Below, in pieces: positions 4,413 through 23,925 of a stretch of 60,216 nt of DNA. A program made the position numbers and the translations under genes. The notes beneath the pieces are model-generated. The model saw only the letters and a program-made list of their open reading frames with translations. It searched no databases and had not been told where the DNA came from. This stretch comes from Candidatus Beckwithbacteria bacterium (GTDB taxonomy: Bacteria > Patescibacteriota > Microgenomatia > UBA1400 > UBA1449), in NCBI GenBank assembly GCA_012797845.1, contig JAAZOH010000002.1:1-60216 (forward strand), in the 5' to 3' direction. Each line of letters begins with the position of its first letter. The first letter of the stretch is position 1.

Positions 4413-4441
4413 GTGTGACACAATGAAAAAGCAGTGAGCTA
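4413..4441 (+). repeat. 29-bp direct repeat, copy 1 (copy 2 at 6631-6659)
   Basis: GTGTGACACAATGAAAAAGCAGTGAGCTA vs GTGTGACACAATAGAAAAGCAGTGAGCTA, 27/29 identical. Confidence 0.9.
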
Positions 4442-5682: not shown

Positions 5683-6480
5683 CTACATATGTATGCTAGA
5701 CATATTGGATATGTCATGCATGCTGTAGATATATTCCAAAACTTGTTCAACTGTAGCTAAAGCCTTAGTAATAGCTAGCAGTGGGTCTTTGGCATAAAGG
5801 CTAATGTATTTCCAACTACTGCCTGAATGGTCTTCATATCCATAAAGATTAGTTAAGACTGCAGCTGTAAATTCAGCTACCACTTCCTGATCAACATTTT
5901 GCCCAGCTGTCAATTTGCCTTTTATCCGGGCATGGATAGCATGAGCTAGTTCGTGGAAAAAGACTGAGGGGTCAAAACTAGCTAAACGGATCCTTGTCCC
6001 ATCAGTAGTACAATCTCCATACCTATCTTCTATGGTAGGGGTATAACTAACGTTAATCTTTAGTTTTTCAGCCAGATCCATAAGCGGGGGTAATTTGGCA
6101 GGAGTGTATAGAGAAATAGGAGTTTCCCCTTTGGTAGCAGAGGCTGGAAAAACCGGTACTGGATAAAAACCTATACAAGTATATTCTTCCCGATCAGCTT
6201 CTCCATCAATATCTTTGACCATATGTGGTCTGATGATATATACAGCCTTACTACCTTTCTGGACAAATCTACCTGCCTTTTGCCATTGTCTAAAACCTCT
6301 GCAATCTAATTCTTCAGCCTGGATATAGGCTAGAACCCGGTTACTTAAGCTCCAGTTTCGAGCTGGAGCTTGGGGATCTAACCGAATCCTGACGGTATTA
6401 GTAATGGGAGATAAATCTCCATTCTTAAACTTCTCGACCACCTGATCGAGACTTTGTTTAACCTTAGGAGAGAATTTCAT
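5683..6480 (-). CDS. ardC: ArdC-like ssDNA-binding antirestriction protein with zincin (HExxH) domain
   Basis: WSLSN..L, GFRQWQKAGRFVQKGSKA (ArdC N-terminal domain), HELAHAIH, EVVAE. Strong AAGGAGG SD upstream. Confidence 0.8.
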   Translation of the reverse strand: MKFSPKVKQSLDQVVEKFKNGDLSPITNTVRIRLDPQAPARNWSLSNRVLAYIQAEELDCRGFRQWQKAGRFVQKGSKAVYIIRPHMVKDIDGEADREEYTCIGFYPVPVFPASATKGETPISLYTPAKLPPLMDLAEKLKINVSYTPTIEDRYGDCTTDGTRIRLASFDPSVFFHELAHAIHARIKGKLTAGQNVDQEVVAEFTAAVLTNLYGYEDHSGSSWKYISLYAKDPLLAITKALATVEQVLEYIYSMHDISNMSSIHM

Positions 6481-6536: not shown

Positions 6537-6659
6537 TAGCTCACTGCTCAACCATTCCTACTACACACGAAGTCAAGGTGCGGCATTTGTGTCCTGATTT
6601 TTTGAAGGATGCAGATGCTGTGCCTTGACCGTGTGACACAATAGAAAAGCAGTGAGCTA
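6537..6659 (+). other. ~123-nt imperfect hairpin (ssDNA or RNA structure) between ardC and the R-M operon
   Basis: Outer stem 6537-6548/6648-6659 (12 bp perfect), middle stem 6564-6569/6630-6635, inner stem 6572-6595/6606-6629 (24 contiguous pairs, 6 of them G-T/U wobble on the + strand). Confidence 0.85.
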
Positions 6660-6721: not shown

Positions 6722-7645
6722 ATGCCAATCTTTAAAGTCAACAAACAAAAGCTGGAATCAATTAAGGAAGTTAAAATTGATTTGGAAAAAGACATACAAA
6801 CTCTTACGGAAAATAATCTGACTACTATTTTTAATCTTCAATTTGTTTGTTCTGAATTTACTCATAATAACTTACGTATTGATACTTTGGCTTACGATCA
6901 AGAAACTCAATCCTTTGTGATTATTGAATATAAAAAAGATCGAAGTTTTTCTGTTATTGATCAAGGCTATGCTTATTTAGCTTTAATGCTAAATAATAAA
7001 GCTGACTTTATTTTGGAATACAATGAAAAGACTAATCAAAATCTTAAGCGAGAGAATATAGATTGGTCACAATCACGGGTTATCTTTATCGCTAATTCTT
7101 TTACCAAATATCAACAGCAGGCTATTAACTTTCAAGATTTACCAATTGAACTTTGGGAAGTTAAAAAATACAGCAATAACACTTTTTTATATAACCAACT
7201 TCAATCACCCCAAGCTTCAGAATCGATTAAGACAATTAGTAAAAATAAAACCATAAGCAAAGTTTCACAAGAGGTTAAAAAGTATACAATTAGCGATCTT
7301 TTTAAAGTAGATTGGAGAAACTCAAGAGATTTATTTGAATCTTTAAGACCTAGAATTCTAGAAATAGATGAAAGAATTGAAGAAAAATTTAATAAATTTT
7401 ATGTAGGATACAAAATTGGGTCATATAATCTTTGTACGTTAAATGTTTATAAATCTAAACTGGAGTTAGACTTGGTAAGAGTTGATAAAAAAGATCTAAA
7501 TGATCCAGAGAATAAAATAAAACTACGACCATGGAAAGAAAATAATTGGGGTAAGTTATGTAGATATACTATCCTATCTAAAAATGACTTCGATTATGCT
7601 ATGTTTTTAATTAAACAAGTATATGAAAAGTTTTATAAGGAGTAG
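6722..7645 (+). CDS. PD-(D/E)xK (NucS/EndoMS-like) nuclease fused to DUF5655-like domain
   Basis: RIDTLAYD..FVIIEYKK nuclease motif, DQG..Y, C-terminal H/NWG-type domain. ATG start 6722 preferred over TTG 6683. Confidence 0.7.
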   Translation: MPIFKVNKQKLESIKEVKIDLEKDIQTLTENNLTTIFNLQFVCSEFTHNNLRIDTLAYDQETQSFVIIEYKKDRSFSVIDQGYAYLALMLNNKADFILEYNEKTNQNLKRENIDWSQSRVIFIANSFTKYQQQAINFQDLPIELWEVKKYSNNTFLYNQLQSPQASESIKTISKNKTISKVSQEVKKYTISDLFKVDWRNSRDLFESLRPRILEIDERIEEKFNKFYVGYKIGSYNLCTLNVYKSKLELDLVRVDKKDLNDPENKIKLRPWKENNWGKLCRYTILSKNDFDYAMFLIKQVYEKFYKE

Positions 7646-7647
7646 CC

Positions 7648-9102
7648 ATGTTCGAACAAGCCTTCAAAAATATTGATGATGTTTTATGGAAAGATGCAGG
7701 AGTGAGTAACGAGCTTGATTATATCGAGCAAACCTCCTGGATTTTGTTTTTAAAATATTTGGATGATTATGAAAAAGATAAAAAAACTGAAGCTGCCTTG
7801 GCTGGGAAGCAATATCGATTTTTAATTGATGAAGCATTTCGTTGGGAATCTTGGGCTTGTCCAAAAACTCAAGATGGTAAACTGGATCACAATCAGGCTT
7901 TATCTGGTGATGACCTTAGAGACTTTGTTGACCGTCAACTGTTCCCCTATCTCAAAAAATTTAGAGAAAAAGCTGAAAGCCCAGATACAATCGAATATAA
8001 AATCGGAGAAATATTTTCCCAGCTGCGAAACAAAATTCAAAGTGGCTATACCCTAAGAAATGTCTTAGACATTATCGACCAGATGAAATTCCGCTCCCAG
8101 CAGGAAAAATATGAACTGTCGCATCTTTATGAAGCCAAAATCCAAAATATGGGTAATGCCGGCCGTAATGGTGGCGAGTACTACACACCAAGACCACTGA
8201 TTAAAACTATTGTCAAAGTAGTTGATCCGCAGATTGGAGATCAAGTTTATGACGGGGCGGTTGGTTCGGCCGGATTTTTGATCGAGGCGTTTGAGTATAT
8301 GCGCAACTTGCGGCCACTGTCGACCAATGACGTCACAACTTTGCAAAAGCAAACCTTTTTTGGTAAAGAGAAAAAATCGCTGGCGTATATCATCGGGATT
8401 ATGAATATGATCCTGCATGGCATTGATGCCCCCAATATTTTGCATACCAACACCCTTTCTGAAAATATTTTGGATATCCAGGAAAAAGACCGCTTTGATG
8501 TGGTGCTGACCAATCCCCCATTTGGCGGCAAAGAACGCAAAGAAGTCCAGCAGAATTTCCCGATCAAAACCAGTGAAACCGCCTTTTTATTTCTGCAACA
8601 TTTTATAAAATCTCTAAAAGCAGGAGGTAAAGCCGGGATTGTAATTAAAAATACTTTTCTGTCCAATACCGACAATGCTTCCATTTCCCTGCGCAAACTG
8701 CTTTTAGAAAACTGCAACCTGCATACGATTTTGGATTTGCCAGGCGGCGTTTTTACCGGAGCTGGAGTCAAAACCGTAGTCTTATTTTTCCAAAAAGGTT
8801 CAGCAACCCAGAAGGTTTGGTTTTACCAGCTTAACCTTGACCGCAACTTAGGCAAAACCAATCCGATCAATGAAAATGATTTGGCAGAATTTTTGACTTT
8901 GCAAAAAGACAAAGCTGATAGCCGAAATTCCTGGACAGTAGATATTAAAGACGTAGACGAAAAAACCTATGATCTGTCAGTCAAAAATCCAAATAAAAAT
9001 GATGAGGTGGTGTTGCGCGAGCCGAATGAGATTTTGGAAGAGATGGAAAAGTTAGACTTAGAAAATAAAAATATAATGTTGGAAATTAAAAACTTACTAT
9101 AG
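7648..9102 (+). CDS. hsdM: type I restriction-modification methyltransferase subunit M (N6-adenine)
   Basis: GEYYTPRPLI, YDGAVGSAGFL (motif I), NPPFGG (motif IV), TSETAFLFLQH. Confidence 0.95.
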   Translation: MFEQAFKNIDDVLWKDAGVSNELDYIEQTSWILFLKYLDDYEKDKKTEAALAGKQYRFLIDEAFRWESWACPKTQDGKLDHNQALSGDDLRDFVDRQLFPYLKKFREKAESPDTIEYKIGEIFSQLRNKIQSGYTLRNVLDIIDQMKFRSQQEKYELSHLYEAKIQNMGNAGRNGGEYYTPRPLIKTIVKVVDPQIGDQVYDGAVGSAGFLIEAFEYMRNLRPLSTNDVTTLQKQTFFGKEKKSLAYIIGIMNMILHGIDAPNILHTNTLSENILDIQEKDRFDVVLTNPPFGGKERKEVQQNFPIKTSETAFLFLQHFIKSLKAGGKAGIVIKNTFLSNTDNASISLRKLLLENCNLHTILDLPGGVFTGAGVKTVVLFFQKGSATQKVWFYQLNLDRNLGKTNPINENDLAEFLTLQKDKADSRNSWTVDIKDVDEKTYDLSVKNPNKNDEVVLREPNEILEEMEKLDLENKNIMLEIKNLL

Positions 9103-9106
9103 TTCT

Positions 9107-10921
9107 ATGAGAATACAAACGATAAGTATTGCAAATTATCCTCCAATTAAAAATTTAAAAATAGAGAACTTAAGTAATGTTGTAATTATTGCTGGAGCGA
9201 ATGGTTCAGGTAAAACAAGACTGAAAGAGGCTATTATTCAAACTTTTCAAGGTAGTCCTCAAATGTCGCTAGAGATTCGAGCCACTAAAGATGAAGAAAA
9301 ACAGAGATTTAATGATGATTCAATTAATGTGATTCAGGGACAGTCAAATCAAATATTAAATCAATACATGCAAAGTCGTAGTTTTGGTCGGGGTAAATAT
9401 GTTGGATCATTAGTTCAGATTGATTCTGATAGAAATATTACAACTACAAAATATAACAAAATAAATTATCAAACCTCTGATCCAGATGACCAAGATTCAC
9501 CAAGCACGTTTTATTGTCAAAATTTTGCAAATAGATGGCAAGATTTTATGAATTATATTCATCAAAAAGTGGCTGCATATAATACAAAATTAGCTGAGGA
9601 AGTAAAAAACAACCAAGAAAAAAAGGGACGCGAAATATTACTAAAATTGCCACATCCACTAGATAAATACAAAGCTATATTCAAGAAACTACTACAAGAT
9701 AAAGAATTACAAGACATAGACCCAGCTAATCCAGGCGAATTTAAATACAAAACTGATGAGGGAATAATACTGCCTTTCAAGGCATTAAGTTCTGGTGAAC
9801 AGGAAATTATCAAAATAATATTTGATATTGAAAGGAAAGATATTAAACATTCAGTTATTCTTGTTGATGAACCTGAATTACATTTACACCCTACCCTTAC
9901 TTTCAAATTAATAGAAAATTTGAAGACAATTGGCGAACAAACAAATCAGTTTATATTTCTCACTCATTCTGCAGATATTATTTCAACTTATTATTCGACC
10001 GGAGATGTATATTTTATTGATGCAGAACAAACTGGACAAAACCAGGCTCATAAATTAAGTGAGCTTGATCATAGTCATAAAACATTAGTAAAACTTATAG
10101 GCGAAAATCTAGGTTTATTTGCTGTAGGCAAAAAACTTATTTTTATTGAAGGAGATAGTTCAAGTATTGATCGAATGACTTACCATTCTATAGCCCAAAA
10201 ATATCTTCCTGATGCTAAAGTAATTCCAATAGGTTCCGTTGAGAGTATAGGAACACTAAATATCATAGAAGAACAAATAAGAAATGCAATTTTTGGTATA
10301 GACTTTTATATGATTAGGGATCGTGATGGTTTAGCAAATGATCAGATCAATGAATTAGAAAAAAGTGGGAAATTAAAATGTTTGAAACGAAGACATATAG
10401 AAAATTATTTTTTTGATGAAGGAACCTTATTTAAGGTTGCTGAAAGATTGTGTCTAACTACAATAAATCCACAAATTACCCCTACCTATATTATTTCCGA
10501 ATTAAAAAAAATTGCTTCTAAAATGTTTAATTTAAATCTTTTGCAAAGCATAAAAGATTATTTAGTACTTAATCACAACCTAGACATTCCTACTGTTCGG
10601 AACATAGATAAAAAAAGCTCTGAAGAAATAAAAATAGAAATGATAAGTGGAGTAAAACAATCTTTGTCAAAAATCAATATCGATCTTTCTGAAGTAAAAC
10701 TAGACCAATGGATTACTACAGAAAAACTCAAATTAGAACGTTCACTTCAAGCTGATGAGTGGATTATTGATTTCCGTGGCAAAGAAATATTTTCTGTATT
10801 TTGTTCCAATGTTTTTCATGATGATGTTTTGAAAATAAGACAAGCGTATGTAGATATAGCACTTCAAGAAAAACCTAATATCTTTAAAGATATTATTGAC
10901 ATATATCAAAGTTTTAATTAA
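9107..10921 (+). CDS. ABC/AAA ATPase fused to TOPRIM-like nuclease (OLD-family-like)
   Basis: GANGSGKT Walker A, LSSGEQ signature, ILVDEPELHLHP Walker B/D-loop, THS H-loop, then FIEGD...D and RDRD TOPRIM motifs and IENY. Confidence 0.85.
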   Translation: MRIQTISIANYPPIKNLKIENLSNVVIIAGANGSGKTRLKEAIIQTFQGSPQMSLEIRATKDEEKQRFNDDSINVIQGQSNQILNQYMQSRSFGRGKYVGSLVQIDSDRNITTTKYNKINYQTSDPDDQDSPSTFYCQNFANRWQDFMNYIHQKVAAYNTKLAEEVKNNQEKKGREILLKLPHPLDKYKAIFKKLLQDKELQDIDPANPGEFKYKTDEGIILPFKALSSGEQEIIKIIFDIERKDIKHSVILVDEPELHLHPTLTFKLIENLKTIGEQTNQFIFLTHSADIISTYYSTGDVYFIDAEQTGQNQAHKLSELDHSHKTLVKLIGENLGLFAVGKKLIFIEGDSSSIDRMTYHSIAQKYLPDAKVIPIGSVESIGTLNIIEEQIRNAIFGIDFYMIRDRDGLANDQINELEKSGKLKCLKRRHIENYFFDEGTLFKVAERLCLTTINPQITPTYIISELKKIASKMFNLNLLQSIKDYLVLNHNLDIPTVRNIDKKSSEEIKIEMISGVKQSLSKINIDLSEVKLDQWITTEKLKLERSLQADEWIIDFRGKEIFSVFCSNVFHDDVLKIRQAYVDIALQEKPNIFKDIIDIYQSFN

Positions 10922-10995
10922 TTTTTATAAAAAATTTTAATAACTAAAGAATTAATTAAGATATACGTTTTTACGCTAAATAAAAAAGAATATGT

Positions 10996-11409
10996 ATGAG
11001 CATTAATCATCAAGAAATAATAACCGAGATTAATAAAAATATTACTACAATAATAACTGTAATTTTGATAATTTTTACTTTCTTTTTTTATTATTCCAGT
11101 GCTTATTTTTTTGCATTTCTAACCTTAGTTTTACTTTTGATTAGTCCCAGAGTTAATGACATTAAAAAGATCAAGGTAAGTTTTAAAAATGTTGATATTG
11201 AATTTAGAGAACTTAATAAAGAATTAAAAGAAGTTATACAATCCAAAAATACATTAGAAAATAAACTTAAAGGAGCTAAAAAAATACTTAGCAATATGTT
11301 TAAACTTGGTTGTCGTATTGGAGAGGGAAAGGCTTTAGGTACAATTTCAGATGTAAAAATGATTGAAGACGAGGAAGGAAATATAACAGTTCAATATGAT
11401 GAATCCTAA
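10996..11409 (+). CDS. hypothetical membrane protein (two TM helices plus coiled region)
   Basis: Hydrophobic N-terminal pair of segments; overlaps the hsdS start. Confidence 0.6.
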   Translation: MSINHQEIITEINKNITTIITVILIIFTFFFYYSSAYFFAFLTLVLLLISPRVNDIKKIKVSFKNVDIEFRELNKELKEVIQSKNTLENKLKGAKKILSNMFKLGCRIGEGKALGTISDVKMIEDEEGNITVQYDES

Positions 11410-12490
11410 CTGGCAAACAAAAAAACTAGGCGAAGTAATAAAACTTGAATATGGAAAACCATTACCTAAATCTGATAGAAAAACTGATGGTAGATATCCG
11501 ATTTATGGCGCCAATGGAATTAAAAGCTGGAGTAATAAATTTTATTATGATAAGCCCACTATTATTGTTGGCAGGAAAGGTTCTGCTGGTGAAATTAATC
11601 TAGTGGAAGAAAAATTTTGGCCATTAGATGTTACTTATTTTACAACTTTTGATGCTAAAAAATATGATTTAAAATTTTTATATAACCTTTTAAAAAATCT
11701 TGAACTCCCAAAATTAGCAAAAGGTGTGAAGCCTGGGATTAATAGGAATGATATTTATAAAATAAAAGTTCCCCTTCCTCCCCTTTCCGAACAACGTCGC
11801 ATAGTCAAAATTCTGGATGAGGTTTTTGGACAGATTGAGAAAGTCAAAGCAAATACTCAAAAAAATCTGGAAAATAGCAAAGAGTTGTTTGAATCGTATT
11901 TGAAATACTCCTATGAAGGAAACAATGAATGGTTAACTAAAAACTTATTTGAGGTTGCAGAAATAAATAAAGATAAAAATGGTAGAAAAGACCTTCCATA
12001 TATTGGGATGGAGGATATTGAATCTAATTCTGGGAAGTTTATCGGATCATTTGAACCAAAAAGTGTAAAGAGTTCATCTTTTTATTTTAATGATAAACAT
12101 ATTTTATATGGTAGATTAAGACCTTATTTAAATAAGGTACTGATACCAGATTTTGAAGGACATTGTTCGACGGAAATATTTCCGATTAGAGTAAATAATA
12201 GTTTGGATAAAAAGTTTTTATTTTACTGGCTTATAAAAAGATCAACTACAGAAAGAATTAATTCTACATGTACAGGAGCCAGAATGCCGAGAGCAAATAT
12301 GAATAAAGTTTTTAAAGACTTTAAAGTTGTATTTCCAAAATCTCTTACTGAGCAAAAGCAAATAGTCGCTAAGCTGGATGATTTATCAGAGAAAACTAAA
12401 AAATTAGAACAAAATTATCGGCAGAAATTGGCGGATTTGGAGGAGCTTAAGAAATCAGTTCTCAATAAAGCGTTTAGTGGTGAGTTGTAA
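11396..12490 (+). CDS. hsdS: type I restriction-modification specificity subunit S
   Basis: Two TRDs separated by PLPPLSEQRRIV..LD and closed by EQKQIVAKLD...KAFSGEL conserved helices. Confidence 0.95.
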   Translation: MMNPNWQTKKLGEVIKLEYGKPLPKSDRKTDGRYPIYGANGIKSWSNKFYYDKPTIIVGRKGSAGEINLVEEKFWPLDVTYFTTFDAKKYDLKFLYNLLKNLELPKLAKGVKPGINRNDIYKIKVPLPPLSEQRRIVKILDEVFGQIEKVKANTQKNLENSKELFESYLKYSYEGNNEWLTKNLFEVAEINKDKNGRKDLPYIGMEDIESNSGKFIGSFEPKSVKSSSFYFNDKHILYGRLRPYLNKVLIPDFEGHCSTEIFPIRVNNSLDKKFLFYWLIKRSTTERINSTCTGARMPRANMNKVFKDFKVVFPKSLTEQKQIVAKLDDLSEKTKKLEQNYRQKLADLEELKKSVLNKAFSGEL

Positions 12491-12500
12491 AAATAAAGAT

Positions 12501-12538
12501 AGATTCCGGATCAGGCTTTCAATCTGTCCGGAATGACA
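12501..12538. repeat. REP-like palindrome
   Basis: AGATTCCGGATC...TCCGGAATGAC, with stem ATTCCGGA/TCCGGAAT. Confidence 0.65.
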
Positions 12539-12543
12539 TGGGT

Positions 12544-12608
12544 TAGTTTACAATTATTTACCAACTAGTTGACATAAGAGAAGCCATAGTTTACAATTAG
12601 TTGACATA
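12544..12608 (+). promoter_or_regulatory. four TAGTT(T/G)ACA boxes, candidate operator of the downstream wHTH protein
   Basis: TAGTTTACAATTA at 12544 and 12587; TAGTTGACATA at 12566 and 12598, ending at the ATG. Confidence 0.6.
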
Positions 12609-13666
12609 TGATAAACAAAGAAGAAATACTTAAAACCATAAAAGATAAAGGCATTGTCAAAAGCTCTGATTTGGTGGCTAGTTTTGGTGTGTCAAGACAA
12701 TATATTGCCAGACTTTTAGCCCAGCTGGTTTCTGAAAATGAAATTGTCAAAGTTGGCTCAACCAGAGGTGCTTTGTATGCTACTGAAAGTTATTTAGCTA
12801 AAAATCCTCAATCTGCTGCTGCTGTTTACACTAAAACTTTTAAAAATACTAATCTGGAAGAGCATAAGATTGTTGATGAGATAAAAACCAGCTTTTCCTT
12901 GTTTGATCAATTGCCGGAAAATATCAAAAGTATTTTTGAATACGCTTTTTCAGAAATGCTCAATAACGCTATTGAGCATTCGCACTCTAAAACTATTAAA
13001 GTAAAAGTCAGTTTAAATCAGAAAGAGCTTTCCTTTGTGATTGATGATTTTGGTATAGGAGTATTTAGAAGCATCATGAATAAAAGAGGCCTCAAATCTG
13101 AGCTGGAAGCGATTCAAGATTTGCTCAAGGGCAAAACTACAACAGCGCCCAAGCTCCACTCTGGAGAGGGAATCTTCTTTACTTCTAAAGTTGGAGATCA
13201 ATTTGCTTTGGATAGTTTTGGTTACCAACTTATGACAGATAATACCATTGATGATCTGTTTGTCGGCAAAACCAAGGGACAAAAACAAGGAACAAGAGTT
13301 ACTTTTAAAATCGGTATTGATAACAAACATCATCTCAATGATGTTTTTAAAGAGTATACCAATGTGAGTAATGATGGAGACTATGGTTTTGACAAAACGG
13401 AAATAAAAGTGAGGCTCTACACCATGGGTGGGGTGTATATTTCCCGCTCTCAAGCACGCAGAGTTTTGGCAGGACTGGAAAAATTTAAAGTCATCGTGAT
13501 GGACTTTGATAAAGTGCCGACAGTAGGTCAGGCATTTACCGATGAAATTTATCGGGTCTTTAAAAATAAATATCCGGAAATAAAAATTGAGAATATAAAT
13601 ACGAATGAAGCTGTCAATTTTATGGTGGAGCGGGCCAAGAAAGAAGCAGAAGTAGGAAGAACATAG
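12608..13666 (+). CDS. wHTH - HATPase_c - STAS-like (DUF4325) protein
   Basis: N-terminal HTH (SRQYIARLL), EMLNNAIEHS N-box, DDFGIG G1, HSGEGIF G2, GTRV; C-terminal SRSQARR..DF..V..VGQAF.DE. Confidence 0.85.
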   Translation: MINKEEILKTIKDKGIVKSSDLVASFGVSRQYIARLLAQLVSENEIVKVGSTRGALYATESYLAKNPQSAAAVYTKTFKNTNLEEHKIVDEIKTSFSLFDQLPENIKSIFEYAFSEMLNNAIEHSHSKTIKVKVSLNQKELSFVIDDFGIGVFRSIMNKRGLKSELEAIQDLLKGKTTTAPKLHSGEGIFFTSKVGDQFALDSFGYQLMTDNTIDDLFVGKTKGQKQGTRVTFKIGIDNKHHLNDVFKEYTNVSNDGDYGFDKTEIKVRLYTMGGVYISRSQARRVLAGLEKFKVIVMDFDKVPTVGQAFTDEIYRVFKNKYPEIKIENINTNEAVNFMVERAKKEAEVGRT

Positions 13667-13692
13667 TGTGAAAGTTTGTAACCATCTTTTAT

Positions 13693-16053
13693 ATGAACGA
13701 AGCCGAAACTCGAGCTGAATATATTGATCCAAAGTTAAAATCATCTGGATGGGGAGAAGTTGAAGGGTCAAAAGTTTTACGGGAATATCGGATAAGTGAA
13801 GGAAGAATACTGGGGAATTTAATAGATAGAAAGCCGGAAATTGCCGATTACATCTTGGTATATAAAAACCGCAAACTTGCAGTTATAGAAGCCAAAGCTG
13901 ATGAGCTGCCGGTATCAGAAGGCGTTAATCAAGCCAAAAATTACGCCAGAAAACTAAAGCTTGATTTTACCTATTCCAGCAATGGCAGAGAAATTTACGA
14001 AGTGAATATGAAGACCGGTAAGGAATGGACTTTGGAGCGCTTCCCTACCCCGGATGAACTTTGGCAAGCTAGTTTTTCGGATCAGAATGAATGGAAAATC
14101 AAATTTTCCAATATTCCCAATGAAGGTAGTTTTGGAAGTCGTTATTATCAAGAAATTGCAATCAACAATATTTTGGATGCTATAGCTGAGGAGAAAACCA
14201 GAATTTTGCTGACCATGGCTACCGGTACTGGCAAAACTGCCGTGGCTTTTCAAGTAGCTTGGAAACTGTTTCAAACCCGCTGGAATTTAAACCGTGATGG
14301 CGGTCGCAGGCCCAGAATTTTATTTTTAGCCGACCGCAATATTTTAGCTGACCAAGCTTTCAATGCCTTTTCTGCTTTCCCGGAAGATGCGCTGGTGAGG
14401 ATTAATCCTTTGGATATCCGTAAAAAAGGCTGCGTACCGACTAATGGCAGTATCTTTTTTACTATTTTTCAAACATTCATGAGTGGAGCAAATAACACTC
14501 CTTATTTTGGGGAGTATCCGGCAGATTTTTTTGACTTCATTATTATTGATGAATGTCATCGAGGTGGGGCCAATGATGAGAGTAATTGGCGCGGTATTTT
14601 GGACTACTTCAAACCCGCGGTACAACTGGGCATGACGGCTACTCCCAAGCGAAAAGATAATATTGACACGTATAAATATTTTGGCGAACCGGTTTATATT
14701 TACTCACTTAAAGAAGGTATTAACGACGGCTTTCTAACTCCATTTAAAGTTAAGCGGATTAAAACCACGCTTGATGATTATGTGTATGTTTCTGATGATC
14801 AGATAATTGAAGGCGAAGTTGAAGAAGGCAAAGTTTATGAAGAACCGGATTTTAACCGCATTATTGAAATAAAAGAACGAGAGGCTGAAAGAGTCAGGAT
14901 AGTTTTGAATGAAATAAACCAAAATGAAAAGACACTTATTTTTTGTGCTACCCAACTTCACGCTTTAGCGGTGAGAGATTTAGTTAATCAAATGAAAAAG
15001 AGTCATGATCCCCTTTATTGTGTCAGAGTAACTGCCGACGATGGGTCCAGAGGTGAACAATATTTACGCGAATTTCAAGATAATGAAAAAACTATTCCCA
15101 CTATTTTAACTACTTCCCAAAAATTATCTACCGGAGTTGATGCCAGAAATATTCGCAATATTGTTTTGATGCGGCCGATTAATTCTATGATTGAATTTAA
15201 ACAAATTATTGGTCGAGGCACTAGACTATTTGATAATAAATATTATTTTACTATTTATGATTTTGTTGATGCCTACAAACATTTTTCTGATCCAGAATGG
15301 GATGGTGAACCGATCCCAGAAATTTGTAAAAAATGTGGTCAAGATCCTTGTGTTTGTGAACCAAAATCACCCCAAGTTTGTCCCGTTTGTGGTCAATCGC
15401 CATGTATTTGCGAAAAACCACCTAGAATTTGTCCCGTTTGTGGTCAGTCACCTTGTATTTGTAAACCCAAGAAAATGTTAAAGATAAAATTACGTGACGG
15501 TAAAGAACGAGATATTCAACATATGCTTTCCACCTCATTTTGGGGGGCAGATGGCAAACCGTTGTCTTCTGAAGAATTTATCAAAAAGATTTATGGAGCT
15601 TTACCAGATTTATTTAAAAATGAAGCTGAACTACGAAAGATTTGGTCCAATCCCACAACCCGAAAAAAGTTTTTGAGTCGGTTATTTGAGTTAGGCATAG
15701 ACTTAGAACAATTAGAAAATATTCAAAAAGTAGTCAACGCTCAAAATTGCGATCTTTTTGATGTTTTAATTTATTTATCATTTAGCAAACCCTTAATTAC
15801 TAGACAAGAAAGAATTGATAAAAACAGAAAAAATATTTTTGAAGGACTTGATGATAAGCAAATAGAATTTTTAAACTTTGTTTTATCAAAGTATGAAGAA
15901 AAAGGTGTAGAAGAATTAGATGAAGAAAAACTACCAATTCTTTTAAATCTTAAATATCAAGCTATAGCTAATGCCGAACAATCTTTGGGTGATGTTAATA
16001 CAATCCGCGATATGTATTTTGACTTTCAAAAAAGACTTTATGCTGAAGTTTAA
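13693..16053 (+). CDS. hsdR: type I restriction endonuclease subunit R (EcoEI/EcoAI-like)
   Basis: ADYIL..AVIEAK nuclease motif, MATGTGKT, IIDECHRG, LSTGVDA, QIIGRGTR, and an EcoEI-type C-terminal domain. Confidence 0.95.
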   Translation: MNEAETRAEYIDPKLKSSGWGEVEGSKVLREYRISEGRILGNLIDRKPEIADYILVYKNRKLAVIEAKADELPVSEGVNQAKNYARKLKLDFTYSSNGREIYEVNMKTGKEWTLERFPTPDELWQASFSDQNEWKIKFSNIPNEGSFGSRYYQEIAINNILDAIAEEKTRILLTMATGTGKTAVAFQVAWKLFQTRWNLNRDGGRRPRILFLADRNILADQAFNAFSAFPEDALVRINPLDIRKKGCVPTNGSIFFTIFQTFMSGANNTPYFGEYPADFFDFIIIDECHRGGANDESNWRGILDYFKPAVQLGMTATPKRKDNIDTYKYFGEPVYIYSLKEGINDGFLTPFKVKRIKTTLDDYVYVSDDQIIEGEVEEGKVYEEPDFNRIIEIKEREAERVRIVLNEINQNEKTLIFCATQLHALAVRDLVNQMKKSHDPLYCVRVTADDGSRGEQYLREFQDNEKTIPTILTTSQKLSTGVDARNIRNIVLMRPINSMIEFKQIIGRGTRLFDNKYYFTIYDFVDAYKHFSDPEWDGEPIPEICKKCGQDPCVCEPKSPQVCPVCGQSPCICEKPPRICPVCGQSPCICKPKKMLKIKLRDGKERDIQHMLSTSFWGADGKPLSSEEFIKKIYGALPDLFKNEAELRKIWSNPTTRKKFLSRLFELGIDLEQLENIQKVVNAQNCDLFDVLIYLSFSKPLITRQERIDKNRKNIFEGLDDKQIEFLNFVLSKYEEKGVEELDEEKLPILLNLKYQAIANAEQSLGDVNTIRDMYFDFQKRLYAEV
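15325..15462 (+). repeat. three tandem CxxCGQxPCxC repeats inside hsdR
   Basis: CKKCGQDPCVC / CPVCGQSPCIC / CPVCGQSPCIC; units start at 15325, 15379 and 15430. Confidence 0.9.
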
Positions 16054-16139
16054 ACAAATTAATTAAGTTTCCAGATTGATAAAATAATTAGGTTTACAAC
16101 TATTTTAAAATGATATAAAACTCAGGTTTTATATAAACT

Positions 16140-16886
16140 ATGGAAAAAATAATCAAATCCGAATTAGAACCTCATATACAGAAACTTATTGATGATTTGG
16201 TAATAAAATATGGTCCAATCGCTATCGTATTAATAGGACTATTTTTAATAATAGTAATAATAACATGGGATATTCTAAAAAATAAAATAAGAGGTGAAGT
16301 AAAAAAGGGAGTCGATAAACATAAAGCAGAGATTGATAATACCTACACTAAACAAATTGAACATTATCGTCTTTATGTTGCTAAACAACACAAAGCCTAT
16401 GCCAAATTAAATAAATATTTATTAAAAACAGAAGGTTTGGCAGTATTTCAAGCTTTAAAGACATATCCAGATTTTACAGAATATACAGAAACAGAAATTT
16501 CGAAATATCTTAAAGAAAGGAACGCATCAGAAAATGAATTGAAACAATTCATTAGTTTAATGGGTGATTCTAAAGCTTTACAAAAAGAAATGCAAAACTA
16601 TACAGAATTATTTAATGTAAGAAAAGCTCGTGTTTTTTTTCATAAAACTAAAAATCATTATTGGATTAACGCATTATATTTTTCCAATAAAATTGAAGAG
16701 CAATTTAAAGATATTACTAAAATATTGAATGAAATGATTATTATTAGAGAAATACCGTCAAATGATAATAAACTTACGAAAGAAGATATGCAGACATTGA
16801 GAAGTTTACAAAAAAACTTGCAATCAAGTATTGATAAAATAGTCAAACAAATGAAGGAAGAGTTATCTGCAGGCTTAGCTAAGTAA
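16140..16886 (+). CDS. hypothetical protein with single N-terminal TM helix and helical body
   Basis: Clean 248-aa ORF co-oriented after hsdR; no recognisable motif. Confidence 0.7.
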   Translation: MEKIIKSELEPHIQKLIDDLVIKYGPIAIVLIGLFLIIVIITWDILKNKIRGEVKKGVDKHKAEIDNTYTKQIEHYRLYVAKQHKAYAKLNKYLLKTEGLAVFQALKTYPDFTEYTETEISKYLKERNASENELKQFISLMGDSKALQKEMQNYTELFNVRKARVFFHKTKNHYWINALYFSNKIEEQFKDITKILNEMIIIREIPSNDNKLTKEDMQTLRSLQKNLQSSIDKIVKQMKEELSAGLAK

Positions 16887-17605: not shown

Positions 17606-17818
17606 ATGACTACAGCTACTCTAATTCAAGTCGGCAAAAAACTAAAAAAGGCAAGACAAAAAAGAAGTTTAACGCAGCAGCAAGTTGCCGATAAAGTGGG
17701 TATTCACGTCAGTTATTACTACCGCATTGAGCGGGGCGTTGTTAATCCTTCTATAGAAATATTAGAACAAGTTTGTAAGGTATTAAAAATTAAAGGAAGT
17801 GAGATCTTACCTTTTTAG
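17606..17818 (+). CDS. XRE-family helix-turn-helix transcriptional regulator
   Basis: LKKARQKRSLTQQQVADKVGIHVSYYYRIERG..NPS. Confidence 0.92.
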   Translation: MTTATLIQVGKKLKKARQKRSLTQQQVADKVGIHVSYYYRIERGVVNPSIEILEQVCKVLKIKGSEILPF

Positions 17819-18192: not shown

Positions 18193-19839
18193 ATGGAAAA
18201 TGCTGTGGCTGTCATTAGGGTATCCACTGTAACCCAAAGTATGCGGGGAGATTCACCTGAGGATCAAAAGCAACAGATCGAACGTTATGCTCAGGCAAGA
18301 AGTATCAGGATTAAGAAATATTTTGTCTTCATGGACTCAGCTTCTAAAGAGCAACAGCCTGTCCAGGAAGCTATTAACTACTGCATAAAAGCTCAGAATC
18401 ATATCCAGCTCCTTATCATCAAATCAATTGACCGATTTACCAGAGGTGGTTCATCACTGTATGACTTGATGAAAACTCGCCTTACAAAACACGGGGTTAA
18501 GTTAATCGATTTATATGGTGTCATCAGCAACCAAAGTGTTAACACCTTGGAACATTTAAGTGTAGCTTATTCCTGGAGTGTGTACAATCCTACGAAAAAA
18601 ACCGAGCTTTTAGAAGCCGAACGGGGAAAAGATGAAATGAGGGATATTATGACCCGGATGATAGGGGCTGAAATCAGGTATGTCAGACTGGGTTACTATG
18701 TCAGGGCTGCCCCGCTTGGGTACCAAAACCAAAAAATTGAGACAGTGCATGGCAGGCGGAATATTTTAGTCCCCCACCCGGTTGAATCAAAATGGATTAT
18801 TGCTATGTTCCGGCTAAAAGCTGAAGGTTTTTTATCTGATCATGAAATTGTCCAACACGTTAACTTATCCGGTTTTAAGACACGAAGATACTATGTTCGG
18901 GATACGCAAGATAAGCGCAAAGTAATTGGGTATCAGGGCGGCAAAGCCTTAACTATAAAAAATTTTGACAGGTTACTTAAAAAACCAATCTATGCTGGTA
19001 TCAACTGCGAAAAATGGACGGCTAATAAGCCAGTAAAATGCGTGTTCCCTGGTCTTGTATCAATTGACCTTTTCAATAAGGCTAATAAAGACAAGATGCT
19101 AATCTGTGAGCAAAATGGTGAGGTGCAACTTATCAAAGGTAAAGCCATGCTTAAGCGCTTTGTCAAAAGTTCCAAAACCTATTTGTATCCATATAAAAGA
19201 CTGGTGCTATGCCCTATTTGCAGACAGCCGTTCTTTGCCAGTGCTTCTAGAGGCAGATTGGGCATATACTATCCTGCCTACCATTGCAACAAACGTGGCC
19301 ATTACTACCGTGTACCTCTGAAAAAATTCAACCAAACAGTAATCAATTTTTTAAGCAGAATCAGGATTAAAAAAAAGTATAATTCTTACTACCAAAAACT
19401 GTTTAAGCGCGAATGGAAGCAAAAGCAACAATTACGAAACAAGCATCGGCTGCTAATTGACACCAGGTTACAGGAAATTGATACAGAAATTAAGCTTAAC
19501 CTTGAAAAGGTTAACATGCTCTATTCAAAAACTGCCTTAAGTGCAATTGAGGTAACAATAGGACAGCTAGAAAGGGAAAAGAAAAAGTTACAAGCCAAGA
19601 GAAGCATAACTCTAAAGAATGCCAGGAATGATAAAAACAAACATCCTCAAATTAGTCAGCCAAGTAATCAGATTCCTACACATATTATTAATGACCATAA
19701 TACAGTTAGTAGAGAAAGGCTATTTAACTACCTTTTCCAAACCTTACCCACGTATGAGGAGCTAGAAAAATTTAGTGCCAAATTAAACAGAGAATTTACC
19801 ATTCATCTGGGCCAGGAGAAGGTGATGCAAACGGCATAG
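18193..19839 (+). CDS. large serine recombinase (resolvase + recombinase + Zn-ribbon + coiled coil)
   Basis: IRVST catalytic Ser, SIDRFTRG, APLGY, CPIC...YHC zinc ribbon, C-terminal coiled coil. Confidence 0.92.
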   Translation: MENAVAVIRVSTVTQSMRGDSPEDQKQQIERYAQARSIRIKKYFVFMDSASKEQQPVQEAINYCIKAQNHIQLLIIKSIDRFTRGGSSLYDLMKTRLTKHGVKLIDLYGVISNQSVNTLEHLSVAYSWSVYNPTKKTELLEAERGKDEMRDIMTRMIGAEIRYVRLGYYVRAAPLGYQNQKIETVHGRRNILVPHPVESKWIIAMFRLKAEGFLSDHEIVQHVNLSGFKTRRYYVRDTQDKRKVIGYQGGKALTIKNFDRLLKKPIYAGINCEKWTANKPVKCVFPGLVSIDLFNKANKDKMLICEQNGEVQLIKGKAMLKRFVKSSKTYLYPYKRLVLCPICRQPFFASASRGRLGIYYPAYHCNKRGHYYRVPLKKFNQTVINFLSRIRIKKKYNSYYQKLFKREWKQKQQLRNKHRLLIDTRLQEIDTEIKLNLEKVNMLYSKTALSAIEVTIGQLEREKKKLQAKRSITLKNARNDKNKHPQISQPSNQIPTHIINDHNTVSRERLFNYLFQTLPTYEELEKFSAKLNREFTIHLGQEKVMQTA

Positions 19840-20089: not shown

Positions 20090-20554
20090 CTATCTAGAGC
20101 CAATACACTTTTCGTAATTGATAAACTTCACCATGTAGATAGCTGACTCTTCGTCTTCAATCCGCCTCATGATTTCCCGGCTTTTTATTTGGGATAAAAT
20201 ATTTAAACTCCCCTCCCATAAGATAGTGCGGTCAATAATTGCCAACTTGCGGTGATGGTTACCTTTACAAATAAAGGGTTGCACTCCTAGATACTCAAAC
20301 CTGGTAATTTCATAATCGGCCTGCTCTGCCATAGGTCTACGATGCTCTTTGGGATCTCTGGTAAAAACATAGACTTTCACTCCATTGTTAACGAGTGATT
20401 CAAAAACCGGATACAAGAATTTCATTCTAGCACTGCTAATAAAAGGGCTTTCGATAATAACTTCCCTTTGACAATGCTGTAAGTCATAGATAAACTGCCT
20501 GTAAAAAGTATGCTCATCAAACAAGGCTGATGCAGGTAAGGGATTATTTTTCAT
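20090..20554 (-). CDS. phospholipase D-like (single HKD-type) domain protein
   Basis: IIESPFI, HRKLAIIDRTILWEGSLN (HxK(x4)D...GSxN). Confidence 0.85.
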   Translation of the reverse strand: MKNNPLPASALFDEHTFYRQFIYDLQHCQREVIIESPFISSARMKFLYPVFESLVNNGVKVYVFTRDPKEHRRPMAEQADYEITRFEYLGVQPFICKGNHHRKLAIIDRTILWEGSLNILSQIKSREIMRRIEDEESAIYMVKFINYEKCIGSR

Positions 20555-20666: not shown

Positions 20667-21413
20667 ATGACTCACGAAAGGCTTTTAAGAGCTGATCTGC
20701 ATACCCATACAAATTTTTCCAAAGATGGAATTACTCCTCCTAATGTTTTTGTAACCGAACTATTAAGGCAAAGTATTGGAATTGTAGCAATTACTGATCA
20801 CGATACCATGGATGGTATCCCCCCTATTCAAGATGCAATCCTAAGCCAATCTGCTGGTATTACTGTTATTTCAGGTATAGAAATAACCACGGGTACTCCA
20901 AACCAAAATGATAAGAATATAGAATTATTAGCCTATTATTTATCTGAACCAGTAAGTTCTGGATTAAATCTTTCCCAAACAATTCAAGAAGTTGCCAAGC
21001 AAAAAGGAATTATTTCCATTCCCCATCCTTTTGAATTATGGCGGCATGGAGCTGGAGAAGAAGTTGAAGCAATAATAGCTTATGCAACGGAGGCTGGAGT
21101 GCCTGTAGCAATTGAAATCTTTAATGCAAGAGCGTTGCCTGGTTTTAATAAGAGAAGTGAAAATTCATTGGCTAGATTTCAAAATACTATATATACGGCA
21201 GGTAGTGATGGCCATCATCCTTTAGAACTTGGCAGAGCTGGTTTGTTATTGGTAGTTCCAAGTAACGAAGTTTATGACAAAAATTGGTTGCTTTTAAATC
21301 TTCGCAATAAACCTCAAGTCTTTGGAGAAGCAAATCCACTTACTACTTTCATATTAAGATTATTGGTTAAATTTGAAAAAAAGCGTCAAGCAAAAATGAA
21401 ACCTCTTCCTTAA
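20667..21413 (+). CDS. PHP-domain phosphoesterase
   Basis: DLHTHT..SKDG, AITDHD, GIEIT, HPF, GSDGH. Confidence 0.92.
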   Translation: MTHERLLRADLHTHTNFSKDGITPPNVFVTELLRQSIGIVAITDHDTMDGIPPIQDAILSQSAGITVISGIEITTGTPNQNDKNIELLAYYLSEPVSSGLNLSQTIQEVAKQKGIISIPHPFELWRHGAGEEVEAIIAYATEAGVPVAIEIFNARALPGFNKRSENSLARFQNTIYTAGSDGHHPLELGRAGLLLVVPSNEVYDKNWLLLNLRNKPQVFGEANPLTTFILRLLVKFEKKRQAKMKPLP

Positions 21414-21464
21414 TATTTACCGCTTTTAATTTCGCTGCTTAAACAAATCCTAATTAAATATAGT
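21318..21464 (+). repeat. 147-bp direct repeat, copy 1 (copy 2 at 23720-23866)
   Basis: Covers the last 31 codons of the PHP gene plus downstream DNA; offset 2402 bp. Confidence 0.92.
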
Positions 21465-21608
21465 TTTTCTCAATATTTTCTAAACAAAAAATCAATACTC
21501 TATTTATAGGTATAAAATTTCATTTCAGCTACTTGTAAGAAAATACAATTAGCCTAAAATAAATATTTCCAAGATAAATAATACGTGCATTCTCTGGGTA
21601 GATAAATT

Positions 21609-22702: not shown

Positions 22703-22776
22703 GGGGTTGTAGCTCAGTTGGTTAGAGCATCCGCCTGTCACGCGGAAGGCCGCGGGTTCGAGTCCCGTCAATCCCG
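22703..22776 (+). tRNA. tRNA-Asp(GTC)
   Basis: Acceptor GGGGTTG/CAATCCC, anticodon arm TCCGC-ctGTCac-GCGGA, GGTTCGAGTCC T-loop. CCA not encoded. Confidence 0.97.
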
Positions 22777-22880
22777 CACATCTTTTATCTCAAAAACAAC
22801 TATATCAAACTATTCTAAAGATTACTGCAAGTTCAAACTTATTCTATGTTATAATTAGTCAAATAATTTTTTAGGAATCT

Positions 22881-23644: not shown

Positions 23645-23719
23645 AATATTAATATAAAATAGATATTTATAATAACAAAGGATATTTGTTATAAGTCAAT
23701 TAAAACTGGTTACTTTTGA

Positions 23720-23815: not shown

Positions 23816-23925
23816 TATTTACTGCTTTTAATTTTCTTACTCAAACAAATCATAATCAAACACAGTATTAAAGCTATGCTTCATATTCATAACCAAAGTG
23901 AGTAAGAAAGTTCAAATTAATTTTT

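What the first reader, a model, noticed from the sequence alone, without database searches (positions are those of the whole stretch)
6722..16886. Type I R-M operon interleaved with five accessory genes, including an ABC-ATPase-TOPRIM possible guard nuclease
Seen: co-oriented order NucS/DUF5655 - hsdM - ATPase-TOPRIM - 2TM protein - hsdS - wHTH/HATPase/STAS - hsdR - 1TM protein, with gaps of 2-4 bp or overlaps at several joins. The ATPase and TM genes look more AT-rich than hsdM. Known: PrrC is an ABC-ATPase nuclease embedded in a type I hsd locus that fires when R-M is inhibited, and PARIS and Gabija use ABC-ATPase plus TOPRIM modules. Inference: the 604-aa protein is a single-chain back-up effector monitoring the R-M complex or anti-restriction proteins.
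Basis: partly seen in the sequence, partly recalled or inferred. Interest (0 to 1): 0.65.

Follow-up and report, generated by a model that had tools for sequence, protein, structure and literature searches.

The report
Fused PARIS-like gene inside restriction operon
A complete type I restriction-modification operon carries extra co-oriented genes between its own, the largest being a single-chain ATPase-nuclease of the known PARIS anti-phage family; this arrangement and its presumed back-up role are already described in the literature, so the locus is a good example rather than a new kind of system.

Summary
Eight co-oriented ORFs lie at 6722-16886, some joined by 2-4 nt gaps or a 14-nt overlap. 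hsdM, hsdS and hsdR form a full EcoAI-type (type IB) system.

The 604-aa protein is an ABC ATPase plus a TOPRIM-type domain. Its best match is PADLOC's fused-PARIS model AriAB (E 4.5e-58), and its C-terminal half alone hits only AriAB models (E 2.2e-20). It does not reach Pfam DUF4435 directly, but collinear relatives at about 30% identity do. Foldseek did not recover AriB.

At least 10 of about 31 distinct close homologues sit in or beside R-M operons: eight type I, from two unrelated hsd families, and two type II. The rest stand alone. This favours an autonomous PARIS-like sensor over a PrrC-like partner of the Hsd complex.

Other genes:
- The upstream gene is PADLOC candidate PDC-S18.
- The wHTH-HATPase-DUF4325 gene belongs to a huge uncharacterised family that is sometimes hsd-embedded.
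- The 248-aa membrane protein has a small family.
- The 137-aa 2-TM ORF has no homologue.

Fused ariAB, embedded defence genes and the back-up idea are all published. Verdict: new member of a known kind, moderate interest.

The parts
6722..7645 (+). PDC-S18 candidate defence gene (PD-(D/E)xK-like N-terminal part plus DUF5655), 307 aa
   Evidence: PADLOC PDC-S18, E 2.5e-104, aligned 1-301 of 302. Pfam DUF5655, E 1.6e-5, and HSDR_N_2, E 0.005. A 61%-identical homologue directly precedes a type IB hsdR and an AriAB homologue in L080.
7648..9102 (+). hsdM, type I methyltransferase subunit, 484 aa
   Evidence: Pfam N6_Mtase, E 2.4e-65, plus HsdM_N. PADLOC MTase_I, E 1.4e-163, full length.
9107..10921 (+). 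Fused PARIS-like ariAB, 604 aa. ABC ATPase at residues 1-305 (nt 9107-10021): Walker A GANGSGKT 30-37, signature LSSGEQ 227-232, Walker B D254-E255, H287. TOPRIM/DUF4435-like domain at residues ~342-604 (nt 10130-10921): E348, D405-x-D407.
   Evidence: PADLOC AriAB PDLC02981, E 4.5e-58. The C-terminal half alone hits only AriAB models, E 2.2e-20. Pfam AAA_15 and AAA_21. The motifs are invariant in 24 homologues. The AF2 C-terminal model shows a beta-alpha x4 fold, with Glu after strand 1 and DxD after strand 3. Relatives at about 30% identity reach Pfam DUF4435.
10996..11409 (+). 137-aa ORF with two predicted TM helices and a coiled-coil tail. It is an orphan and its coding status is uncertain.
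   Evidence: No homologue in the 5.8-billion-protein search. No Pfam, PADLOC or NCBIfam hit. Hydropathy scan. It overlaps the hsdS start by 14 nt.
11396..12490 (+). hsdS, specificity subunit with two target-recognition domains, 364 aa
   Evidence: Pfam Methylase_S, two stretches, E 3.2e-35. PADLOC Specificity_I, E 1e-61.
12555..12614 (.). Two 28-nt near-tandem repeats with a TAGTTGACAT core, in the hsdS-HATPase gap. Possible internal promoter or operator.
   Evidence: the repeat finder family D10. Best sigma-70-like match of the region, 12569-12597, 11 of 12. The total number of promoter-like sites is not above shuffles.
12608..13666 (+). wHTH - GHKL/HATPase - STAS-like (DUF4325) protein, 352 aa, uncharacterised
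   Evidence: Pfam DUF4325, E 6.9e-10. HATPase_c_2, E 5.3e-6. HATPase_c, E 1.3e-5. AbiEi_4, E 1.2e-3. More than 6000 homologous clusters. One homologue is embedded as hsdR(IB)-X-hsdM; two stand alone. No convincing PADLOC model (best DrmA, E 2.7e-5).
13693..16053 (+). hsdR, type IB (EcoAI/FtnUII family) restriction subunit, 786 aa
   Evidence: NCBIfam restrict_EcoAI, E 1.5e-244, aligned 1-783 to 1-767 of 768. Pfam ResIII, EcoEI_R_C and HSDR_N.
16140..16886 (+). 248-aa protein with one N-terminal TM helix, function unknown
   Evidence: 125 representative homologues of about 240 aa. The closest (59% identity) lies directly after a fused N6_Mtase-Methylase_S gene; another stands alone. No family-library hit.
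5683..6480 (-). Flank: ArdC-N-like (anti-restriction-type ssDNA-binding domain) gene
   Evidence: Pfam ArdcN, E 2.1e-5.
18193..19839 (+). Flank: large serine recombinase, suggesting the hsd island is or was mobile
   Evidence: Pfam Resolvase N-terminal domain, E 7e-11, 548 aa.

Best explanation
The region is one co-oriented defence operon on a probably mobile island. It holds a complete type IB (EcoAI-family) restriction-modification system into which independent defence or candidate-defence genes have been inserted.

The 604-aa gene is a single-chain PARIS-type protein. An AriA-like ABC ATPase is fused to an AriB-like TOPRIM (DUF4435-type) nuclease.

**Shown here.**
- The domain architecture.
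- The invariant catalytic motifs.
- Family assignment by HMM.
- Recurrent but non-obligatory insertion next to hsdM, hsdS or hsdR in unrelated R-M systems.

**Inferred from E. coli PARIS (PMC9122126, PMC11464382, PMC10802264).**
- The ATPase part holds the nuclease part inactive in an oligomer.
- Binding of a phage anti-restriction protein (a DNA mimic such as Ocr, Arn or ArdA, which blocks type I enzymes) changes the ATPase assembly.
- The TOPRIM domains become active, probably by dimerising.
- They cut an essential nucleic acid (tRNA in E. coli PARIS), and infection aborts.

Because the two halves are fused, activation cannot be by release of a free AriB. It must be by rearrangement.

Embedding in the hsd operon gives co-transcription and co-transfer of first-line and back-up immunity. 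It does not indicate a physical coupling to the Hsd complex.
For: **Family assignment.**
- PADLOC AriAB model PDLC02981: E 4.5e-58 for the whole protein, E 3.1e-35 for the ATPase half and E 2.2e-20 for the C-terminal half.
- The C-terminal half hits nothing else in PADLOC.
- In a profile search of the PDB, AriA (8ux9_B, E 5e-8) is the only defence ATPase whose alignment runs into the helical insert (profile positions 134-294). PtuA and UvrA cover only about 217-297.

**Catalytic motifs.**
- Walker A, signature, Walker B, H-loop, and TOPRIM E348 and D405/D407 are invariant in 24 homologues from several phyla.
- The AF2 C-terminal model (pLDDT 85.9) has the TOPRIM strand order with the acidic residues at the strand ends.

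**Link to DUF4435.** Collinear 600-618-aa relatives at 27-32% identity (tblastn E 1e-72 to 2e-87) hit Pfam DUF4435 over residues about 344-570 in 6 of the 9 genome loci tested (the viral locus L115 gave none). One reaches the gathering score.

**Genomic context.** At least 10 of about 31 distinct loci with 45% identity or more are R-M-linked:
- the window
- L001, L082, L083, L089 and L092: hsdM-ariAB-hsdS-hsdR-ygjP
- L080: S18-hsdR-ariAB
- L010: hsdR-hsdM-hsdS-ariAB
- L097/L098: M.HpaII-R.HpaII-ariAB
- L005

Gaps to the neighbouring hsd gene are typically 0-46 nt.

**Stand-alone copies** (L085, L087, L088) show the gene can persist without hsd genes.

**Literature.** Fused ariAB exists (PMC9122126; two of 11 clades in PMC11464382). 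Embedded PARIS as a back-up was proposed in bioRxiv 10.1101/2024.01.29.577857.
Against: - Neither the window protein nor 23 close homologues hit Pfam DUF4435. OLD-like_TOPRIM reaches only E 0.16.
- Foldseek of the confident C-terminal model finds no significant match in the PDB, which holds AriB structures (best E 0.095). In BFVD there are only sub-threshold TOPRIM, primase and RloB-like hits.
- The full-length model's top Foldseek hits are the retron Eco8 OLD-type effector, PtuA and GajA, not AriA.
- 195 bits on a 694-position model marks a divergent relative, not a core member.
- No close homologue was found on viral contigs, unlike classical PARIS.
- The trigger, the nuclease target and the oligomeric state are untested.
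Confidence: 0.6

Rival explanations
1. PrrC-like guard. The 604-aa protein binds the HsdMS or HsdR complex, is kept latent by it, and fires when the complex is inhibited.
For: The position right after hsdM, with a 4-nt gap, recurs in L001, L082, L089 and L092. This resembles prrC inside EcoprrI (PMC12707154).
Against: About two thirds of close homologues have no detected hsd neighbour. The embedded ones sit in two hsd families whose HsdM share only 23% identity. Two sit beside type II R-M genes. The C-terminal half has no PrrC hit in PADLOC.
Confidence: 0.1
2. An OLD/Gabija-type ATPase-TOPRIM nuclease that senses something other than anti-restriction proteins, for example RecBCD inhibition or DNA ends. 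It lies in R-M operons only because defence genes cluster and embed.
For: Foldseek of the whole model ranks the retron Eco8 OLD-type effector, PtuA and GajA first. Pfam gives a weak OLD-like_TOPRIM match, E 0.16. Many unrelated defence genes embed in type I R-M (bioRxiv 10.1101/2024.01.29.577857). Stand-alone copies lie next to AbiE or HEPN-MNT modules or among ordinary genes.
Against: PADLOC Old, GajA and retron ATPase-Toprim models score only 50-67 bits, and only on the ATPase. AriAB scores 195 bits and is the only hit on the C-terminal half. No GajB-like helicase or reverse transcriptase is adjacent.
Confidence: 0.25
3. The accessory genes are not defence genes but cargo or regulators of a mobile element. 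The ATPase-TOPRIM protein would act in DNA repair or element maintenance, with an addiction-like role.
For: An ArdC-N-like gene, an XRE-type HTH and a large serine recombinase flank the operon. Composition is mosaic.
Against: Two of the accessory genes match defence-specific models strongly. The same gene recurs in R-M operons of unrelated genomes without these flanks.
Confidence: 0.05

Closest known systems
PARIS, fused form (AriAB; DefenseFinder 'PARIS merge', PADLOC AriAB)
   Same: Single chain with an AAA_15/AAA_21-type ABC ATPase followed by a TOPRIM/DUF4435-type domain. It is the best and only full-length HMM match. Relatives reach DUF4435. The alignment to AriA extends into the ATPase insert.
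   Different: The match is divergent: 195 bits, about 90 residues shorter than the model. There is no direct Pfam DUF4435 hit, no Foldseek match to solved AriB, and no close homologue on viral contigs. No fused AriAB mechanism turned up in the papers read.
E. coli B185 PARIS (AriA + AriB, two genes)
   Same: ATPase plus TOPRIM logic. A plausible role as back-up to systems inhibited by DNA mimics (PMC9122126, PMC11464382).
   Different: That system has two separate proteins forming an AriA6:AriB3 complex that releases AriB. Here the halves are covalently fused, so release is impossible. It is encoded on a P4 satellite hotspot, not inside hsd.
PrrC / EcoprrI
   Same: An ABC-ATPase-containing abortive-infection gene embedded in a type I hsd operon.
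   Different: PrrC has an anticodon-nuclease C-terminal domain, not TOPRIM. It is almost always embedded and is physically masked by EcoprrI (PMC12707154; bioRxiv 10.1101/2024.01.29.577857). This family is mostly found outside hsd.
Campylobacter RloAB inside type I R-M
   Same: ABC ATPase plus TOPRIM/OLD-type nuclease located within a type I R-M locus, noted as PARIS-like by Deep et al. (PMC10802264).
   Different: RloAB is a two-gene system, said by those authors to be structurally distinct from PARIS. Only a sub-threshold Foldseek hit to an 'RloB-like' viral protein was seen here (E 0.057).
Embedded defence genes ('guilt by embedding', PDC/HEC candidates)
   Same: Co-oriented insertion of independent defence genes in type I R-M operons. 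The upstream gene is PDC-S18 itself.
   Different: The wHTH-HATPase-DUF4325 gene and the two membrane-protein ORFs have no model in PADLOC v2.0.0.

Membership tests
PARIS (fused AriAB) | ABC ATPase of the AAA_15/AAA_21 type with intact Walker A, signature, Walker B and H-loop | tested here: met
   Pfam AAA_15, E 1.3e-17, and AAA_21, E 7.2e-16. The motifs are invariant in 24 homologues.
PARIS (fused AriAB) | DUF4435-type TOPRIM nuclease domain with catalytic Glu and DxD | tested here: inconclusive
   **For.** The PADLOC AriAB model hits the C-terminal half alone, E 2.2e-20. E348 and D405/D407 are invariant. The model has TOPRIM topology. Six of the 9 genome-derived collinear relatives tested, at about 30% identity, hit DUF4435, one at the gathering score.

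**Against.** The window protein and 23 close homologues give no DUF4435 hit. Foldseek finds no AriB or OLD TOPRIM match.
PARIS (fused AriAB) | Detected by the fused-PARIS HMM used by defence-finding tools | tested here: met
   PDLC02981 AriAB, 195.5 bits, E 4.5e-58. PDLC02982, 53.9 bits. The published loner thresholds were 80 and 20 bits (PMC9122126, Methods). Whether these are the same models was not checked.
PARIS (fused AriAB) | Activated by anti-restriction proteins (Ocr and others); tRNA cleavage; abortive infection | not testable with these tools
   Needs phage and plasmid challenge and RNA analysis.
PrrC | C-terminal anticodon-nuclease domain and near-obligate embedding in type I (IC) hsd | tested here: not met
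   The C-terminal half hits only AriAB models in PADLOC. About two thirds of close homologues have no hsd neighbour.
Class 1 OLD / Gabija GajA / retron Eco8 effector | OLD-like TOPRIM domain, plus a GajB helicase or a retron RT-ncRNA partner for the latter two | tested here: not met
   Pfam OLD-like_TOPRIM reaches only E 0.16 against a cut-off of 23.2 bits. PADLOC Old, GajA and ATPase-Toprim_I-B hits are confined to the ATPase half. No helicase or RT gene is adjacent. Foldseek similarity is global and ATPase-driven, TM 0.3-0.38.
Type I R-M, type IB (EcoAI family) | Full-length HsdM, HsdS with two TRDs, and HsdR with nuclease, helicase and EcoEI_R_C domains | tested here: met
   NCBIfam restrict_EcoAI scores 813.9 bits against a cut-off of 550.
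PDC-S18 (PADLOC candidate) | Full-length match to the candidate's HMM | tested here: met
   E 2.5e-104, aligned 1-301 of 302. The defence function of this candidate is itself untested, as far as the searched literature shows.

The most novel reading that the evidence does not exclude
The roughly 604-aa clade is unusually conserved: 57-67% identity across Patescibacteria, Bacteroidota, Pseudomonadota and Bacilli. It may be a distinct single-chain ATPase-TOPRIM immune sensor that has specialised for life inside R-M operons. Its preferred slot right after hsdM could reflect translational or functional coupling to the methyltransferase core.

Its neighbours here may be further uncharacterised R-M-embedded modules that act with it. 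These are the wHTH-GHKL-STAS protein absent from defence databases, the 1-TM protein, and the orphan 2-TM ORF. Possible roles would be a regulator or switch and a membrane effector.
Probability: 0.15. Interest if true: 0.6.

Novelty: new member of a known kind. Interest (0 to 1): 0.35.

Why it matters
If the fused protein does sense anti-restriction proteins, this locus is a compact natural example of layered immunity. First-line restriction and its back-up would be transcribed and transferred together.

Fused AriAB would also have mechanistic interest. The published PARIS mechanism depends on release of free AriB, which is impossible in a single chain.

The operon additionally points to cheap candidates for functional screening. 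The wHTH-HATPase-DUF4325 family has more than 6000 clusters, almost no literature and no PADLOC model. The other candidates are PDC-S18 and a small 1-TM family.

None of this changes current concepts. Embedding, fused PARIS and the back-up logic are already published.

Tried and rejected
- **Sequence and profile search of the PDB with the 604-aa protein**. Only generic ABC ATPase hits plus AriA appeared. AriB never appeared.
- **Foldseek of the full model**. The hits are driven by the ATPase and are not discriminating.
- **Foldseek of the C-terminal model against PDB and BFVD**. Nothing was significant, so the TOPRIM call rests on motifs, topology and HMMs.
- **tblastn of the window's own Hsd proteins against homologue loci**. 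This under-detected other type I families. It was repeated with two more hsd families. The R-M-linked fraction remains a lower bound.
- **Partner test for the 2-TM ORF**. It has no homologue anywhere, and no small TM gene follows AriAB elsewhere. The idea of a conserved partner was rejected.
- **MADS membership.** The MAD2, MAD3 and MAD5 hits lie far below NCBIfam cut-offs. Rejected.
- **Viral contigs**. No close homologue was found.
- **Sequencing-run search**. Nothing was listed, so co-transcription could not be checked.
- **Promoter and terminator scan**. Counts are not above the shuffles.
- **Organism of origin.** Not determined.
Full report
**1. Observation**

ORF listing confirms eight co-oriented ORFs: 6722-7645, 7648-9102, 9107-10921, 10996-11409, 11396-12490, 12608-13666, 13693-16053 and 16140-16886. 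Successive gaps are 2, 4, 74, -14, 117, 26 and 86 nt.

Family scans identify a complete type I system:
- HsdM: N6_Mtase, E 2.4e-65.
- HsdS: two Methylase_S stretches.
- HsdR: NCBIfam EcoAI/FtnUII (type IB), E 1.5e-244, full length.

The accessory genes are more AT-rich than hsdM. GC is 0.25-0.30 against 0.39, and GC3 is 0.17-0.21 against 0.41, with a window mean GC of 0.35. The operon is therefore compositionally mosaic.

**2. The 604-aa protein**

*N-terminal half.* Pfam finds AAA_15 and AAA_21. An alignment of 24 homologues, checked against the sequence, shows these motifs to be invariant:
- Walker A, GANGSGKT, residues 30-37
- Q104
- signature LSSGEQ, residues 227-232
- Walker B, D254-E255
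- H287

*C-terminal half.* E348-G349 (in LIFIEGD) and D405-x-D407-G408 (in MIRDRDG) are invariant. A confident AlphaFold model of residues 330-604 (pLDDT 85.9, pTM 0.80) has four parallel strands alternating with helices. The Glu follows strand 1 and the DxD follows strand 3, which is the TOPRIM arrangement. A helical domain comes after it.

*Family assignment.*
- In PADLOC the best hit by far is the fused-PARIS model AriAB (PDLC02981, E 4.5e-58).
- When the protein is split, the ATPase half hits AriAB best (E 3.1e-35).
- The C-terminal half hits only the two AriAB models (E 2.2e-20 and 1.1e-4). It hits no Old, GajA or retron TOPRIM model.
- In a profile search of the PDB, AriA (8ux9_B, E 5e-8) is the only defence ATPase whose alignment extends into the helical insert.

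*Limits of the assignment.*
- Neither the window protein nor its 23 close homologues reach Pfam DUF4435.
- Foldseek of the C-terminal model finds nothing significant in the PDB. In BFVD there are only sub-threshold hits to primase TOPRIM domains and an 'RloB-like' protein.
- Foldseek of the full model ranks the retron Eco8 effector, PtuA and GajA first.

*The bridge to DUF4435 is transitive.* Collinear proteins of 600-618 aa at 27-32% identity (tblastn E 1e-72 to 2e-87) hit DUF4435 over residues about 344-570 in 6 of the 9 genome loci tested (the viral locus L115 gave none). One reaches the gathering score.

I therefore call the protein a divergent member of the fused ABC-ATPase/DUF4435 (AriAB) group. 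It is not a core member.

**3. Distribution and context**

The protein has hundreds of homologues of about 604 aa at 57-67% identity. They come from metagenome-assembled genomes labelled Gracilibacteria, Saccharibacteria, Bacilli, Pseudomonadota and Bacteroidota. Neighbourhoods were read from Pfam-annotated contigs. They were also read by tblastn with Hsd proteins of three families and by Pfam scans of neighbours.

Of about 31 distinct loci with 45% identity or more, at least 10 are R-M-linked:
- the window: S18-hsdM-ariAB-...-hsdS-...-hsdR, type IB
- L080/81: S18-hsdR(IB)-ariAB
- L010: hsdR-hsdM-hsdS-ariAB
- L001, L082, L083/84, L089/90 and L092/95/100: hsdM-ariAB-hsdS-hsdR(-ygjP). This is a different type I family, with an HsdR of about 1066 aa carrying T1R_D3-like and only 22-23% identity to the window's subunits.
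- L097/98: M.HpaII-R.HpaII-ariAB, with a 31-nt gap
- L005: a frameshifted copy next to a type II pair and type IB hsdMS

Spacing to the neighbouring R-M gene is usually 0-46 nt.

The remaining loci lack detectable R-M genes:
- L085 lies beside AbiE and HEPN/MNT modules.
- L087 and L088 lie among ordinary genes.
- L096 lies beside a DUF4238 gene.

In the more distant clade at about 30% identity, only about 3 of 31 loci are hsd-linked. No close homologue is on viral contigs.

It is not met, because the association is real. The association is facultative and is not tied to one Hsd family.

**4. Mechanism**

Three facts argue that the protein is self-sufficient: stand-alone copies exist, the host R-M families are unrelated, and some copies are linked to type II systems. 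Embedding then serves co-expression and co-transfer. This argues against PrrC-like masking by the Hsd complex.

The best-supported model comes from PARIS (PMC9122126, PMC11464382, PMC10802264). An ATPase scaffold keeps the TOPRIM nuclease silent until a phage anti-restriction protein binds. The nuclease then cuts tRNA or another essential nucleic acid and infection aborts.

The steps shown here are the architecture, the conserved catalytic residues, the HMM assignment and the R-M linkage. The trigger, the target, the oligomeric state and the abortive outcome are inferred.

A fused chain cannot release a free AriB, so activation must be by rearrangement or dimerisation. This is the one mechanistically open point.

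**5. The other accessory genes**

- *6722-7645.* This is PADLOC candidate PDC-S18 (E 2.5e-104). It has a PD-(D/E)xK-like N-terminal part (IEYK motif; HSDR_N_2, E 0.005) and DUF5655. It again accompanies a type IB hsdR and an AriAB homologue in L080.
- *12608-13666.* This gene combines a weak AbiEi-type wHTH, a GHKL ATPase at the Pfam cut-offs, and STAS-like DUF4325. Its family has more than 6000 clusters, many in Patescibacteria. One of three contexts examined is hsdR(IB)-X-hsdM, and two are solitary. It has no convincing PADLOC model and almost no literature. A fused SpoIIAB/SpoIIAA-like switch with a DNA-binding head is a reasonable guess, but it is untested.
- *16140-16886.* This 1-TM protein has 125 representative homologues. 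The closest follows a fused MTase-S gene, and another is solitary.
- *10996-11409.* This 2-TM ORF has no homologue at all and may not be a gene.

**6. Surroundings**

The operon is flanked by:
- an ArdC-N-like gene (5683-6480, minus strand)
- an XRE-type HTH (17606-17818)
- a large serine recombinase (18193-19839)
- a PLD-like gene (20090-20554, minus strand)

These suggest a mobile island. Its ends were not found.

**7. Comparison with what is known, and novelty**

- Fused ariAB genes are documented in Rousset 2022 and in Burman 2024, where they form two of 11 clades.
- Defence genes embedded co-directionally in type I R-M, BREX and DISARM were catalogued by Payne et al. 2024. Those authors explicitly suggested that an embedded PARIS could fire when Ocr blocks the host system. 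Their supplementary table records an embedded cassette marked 'Incorporate into PARIS model'.
- Deep et al. 2024 made the same point for Campylobacter RloAB inside a type I locus.

The finding is therefore a new member of a known kind, in a particularly crowded operon. Interest is moderate, for two reasons:
- The 604-aa clade and fused PARIS in general had no experimental data in the papers read.
- The DUF4325 family is an unexplored candidate.

Noticed in passing
window 4413-4441 and 6631-6659: A 29-nt direct repeat (93% identical) lies in two intergenic regions. The second copy is about 63 nt upstream of the PDC-S18 start. It could be a shared operator or promoter element, or the ends of a 2.2-kb insert that carries the ArdC-like gene.
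   Followed up: no
window 12555-12614: Two 28-nt near-tandem repeats with a TAGTTGACAT core lie just upstream of and over the start of the wHTH-HATPase gene. They coincide with the best sigma-70-like match in the region. This may be an internal promoter or an autoregulatory operator.
   Followed up: partly
window 15322-15501 (HsdR residues 544-603): A Cys-rich stretch with three CxxCGQ(D/S)PC(V/I)C units, the last two reading CPVCGQSPCIC, lies between the helicase and C-terminal domains of HsdR. It is encoded partly by a 48-nt tandem DNA repeat at 15363-15461. It looks like zinc-binding knuckles.
   Followed up: no
window 5683-6480 (-), 17606-17818 (+), 18193-19839 (+), 20090-20554 (-): An ArdC-N-like anti-restriction-type gene, an XRE HTH resembling R-M control proteins, a large serine recombinase and a PLD-like (DrmC/MkoC-like) gene flank the operon. 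The island may be mobile.
   Followed up: partly
window 21317-21467 and 23719-23869: A 151-nt direct repeat (89% identical) brackets an ORF, tRNA-Asp (22703-22777) and another ORF.
   Followed up: no
L097 74-2870 and L098 5992-9812: A close AriAB homologue (63% identity) lies 31 nt downstream of an M.HpaII-like / R.HpaII type II R-M pair. The R-M linkage of this family is therefore not limited to type I.
   Followed up: partly
L005 2023-3837: The AriAB homologue in an Algibacter MAG is split into two ORFs, apparently by a frameshift. It lies next to a C5-MTase/NgoFVII-like pair and a type IB hsdM that is 72% identical to the window's.
   Followed up: no
L083 9082-9954 and L064, L069, L072: A Bro-N-domain gene lies between hsdM and the AriAB homologue in a Gracilibacteria genome. 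Its homologues recur 1-3 kb upstream of distant ATPase relatives in Clostridium and Bacilli MAGs.
   Followed up: no
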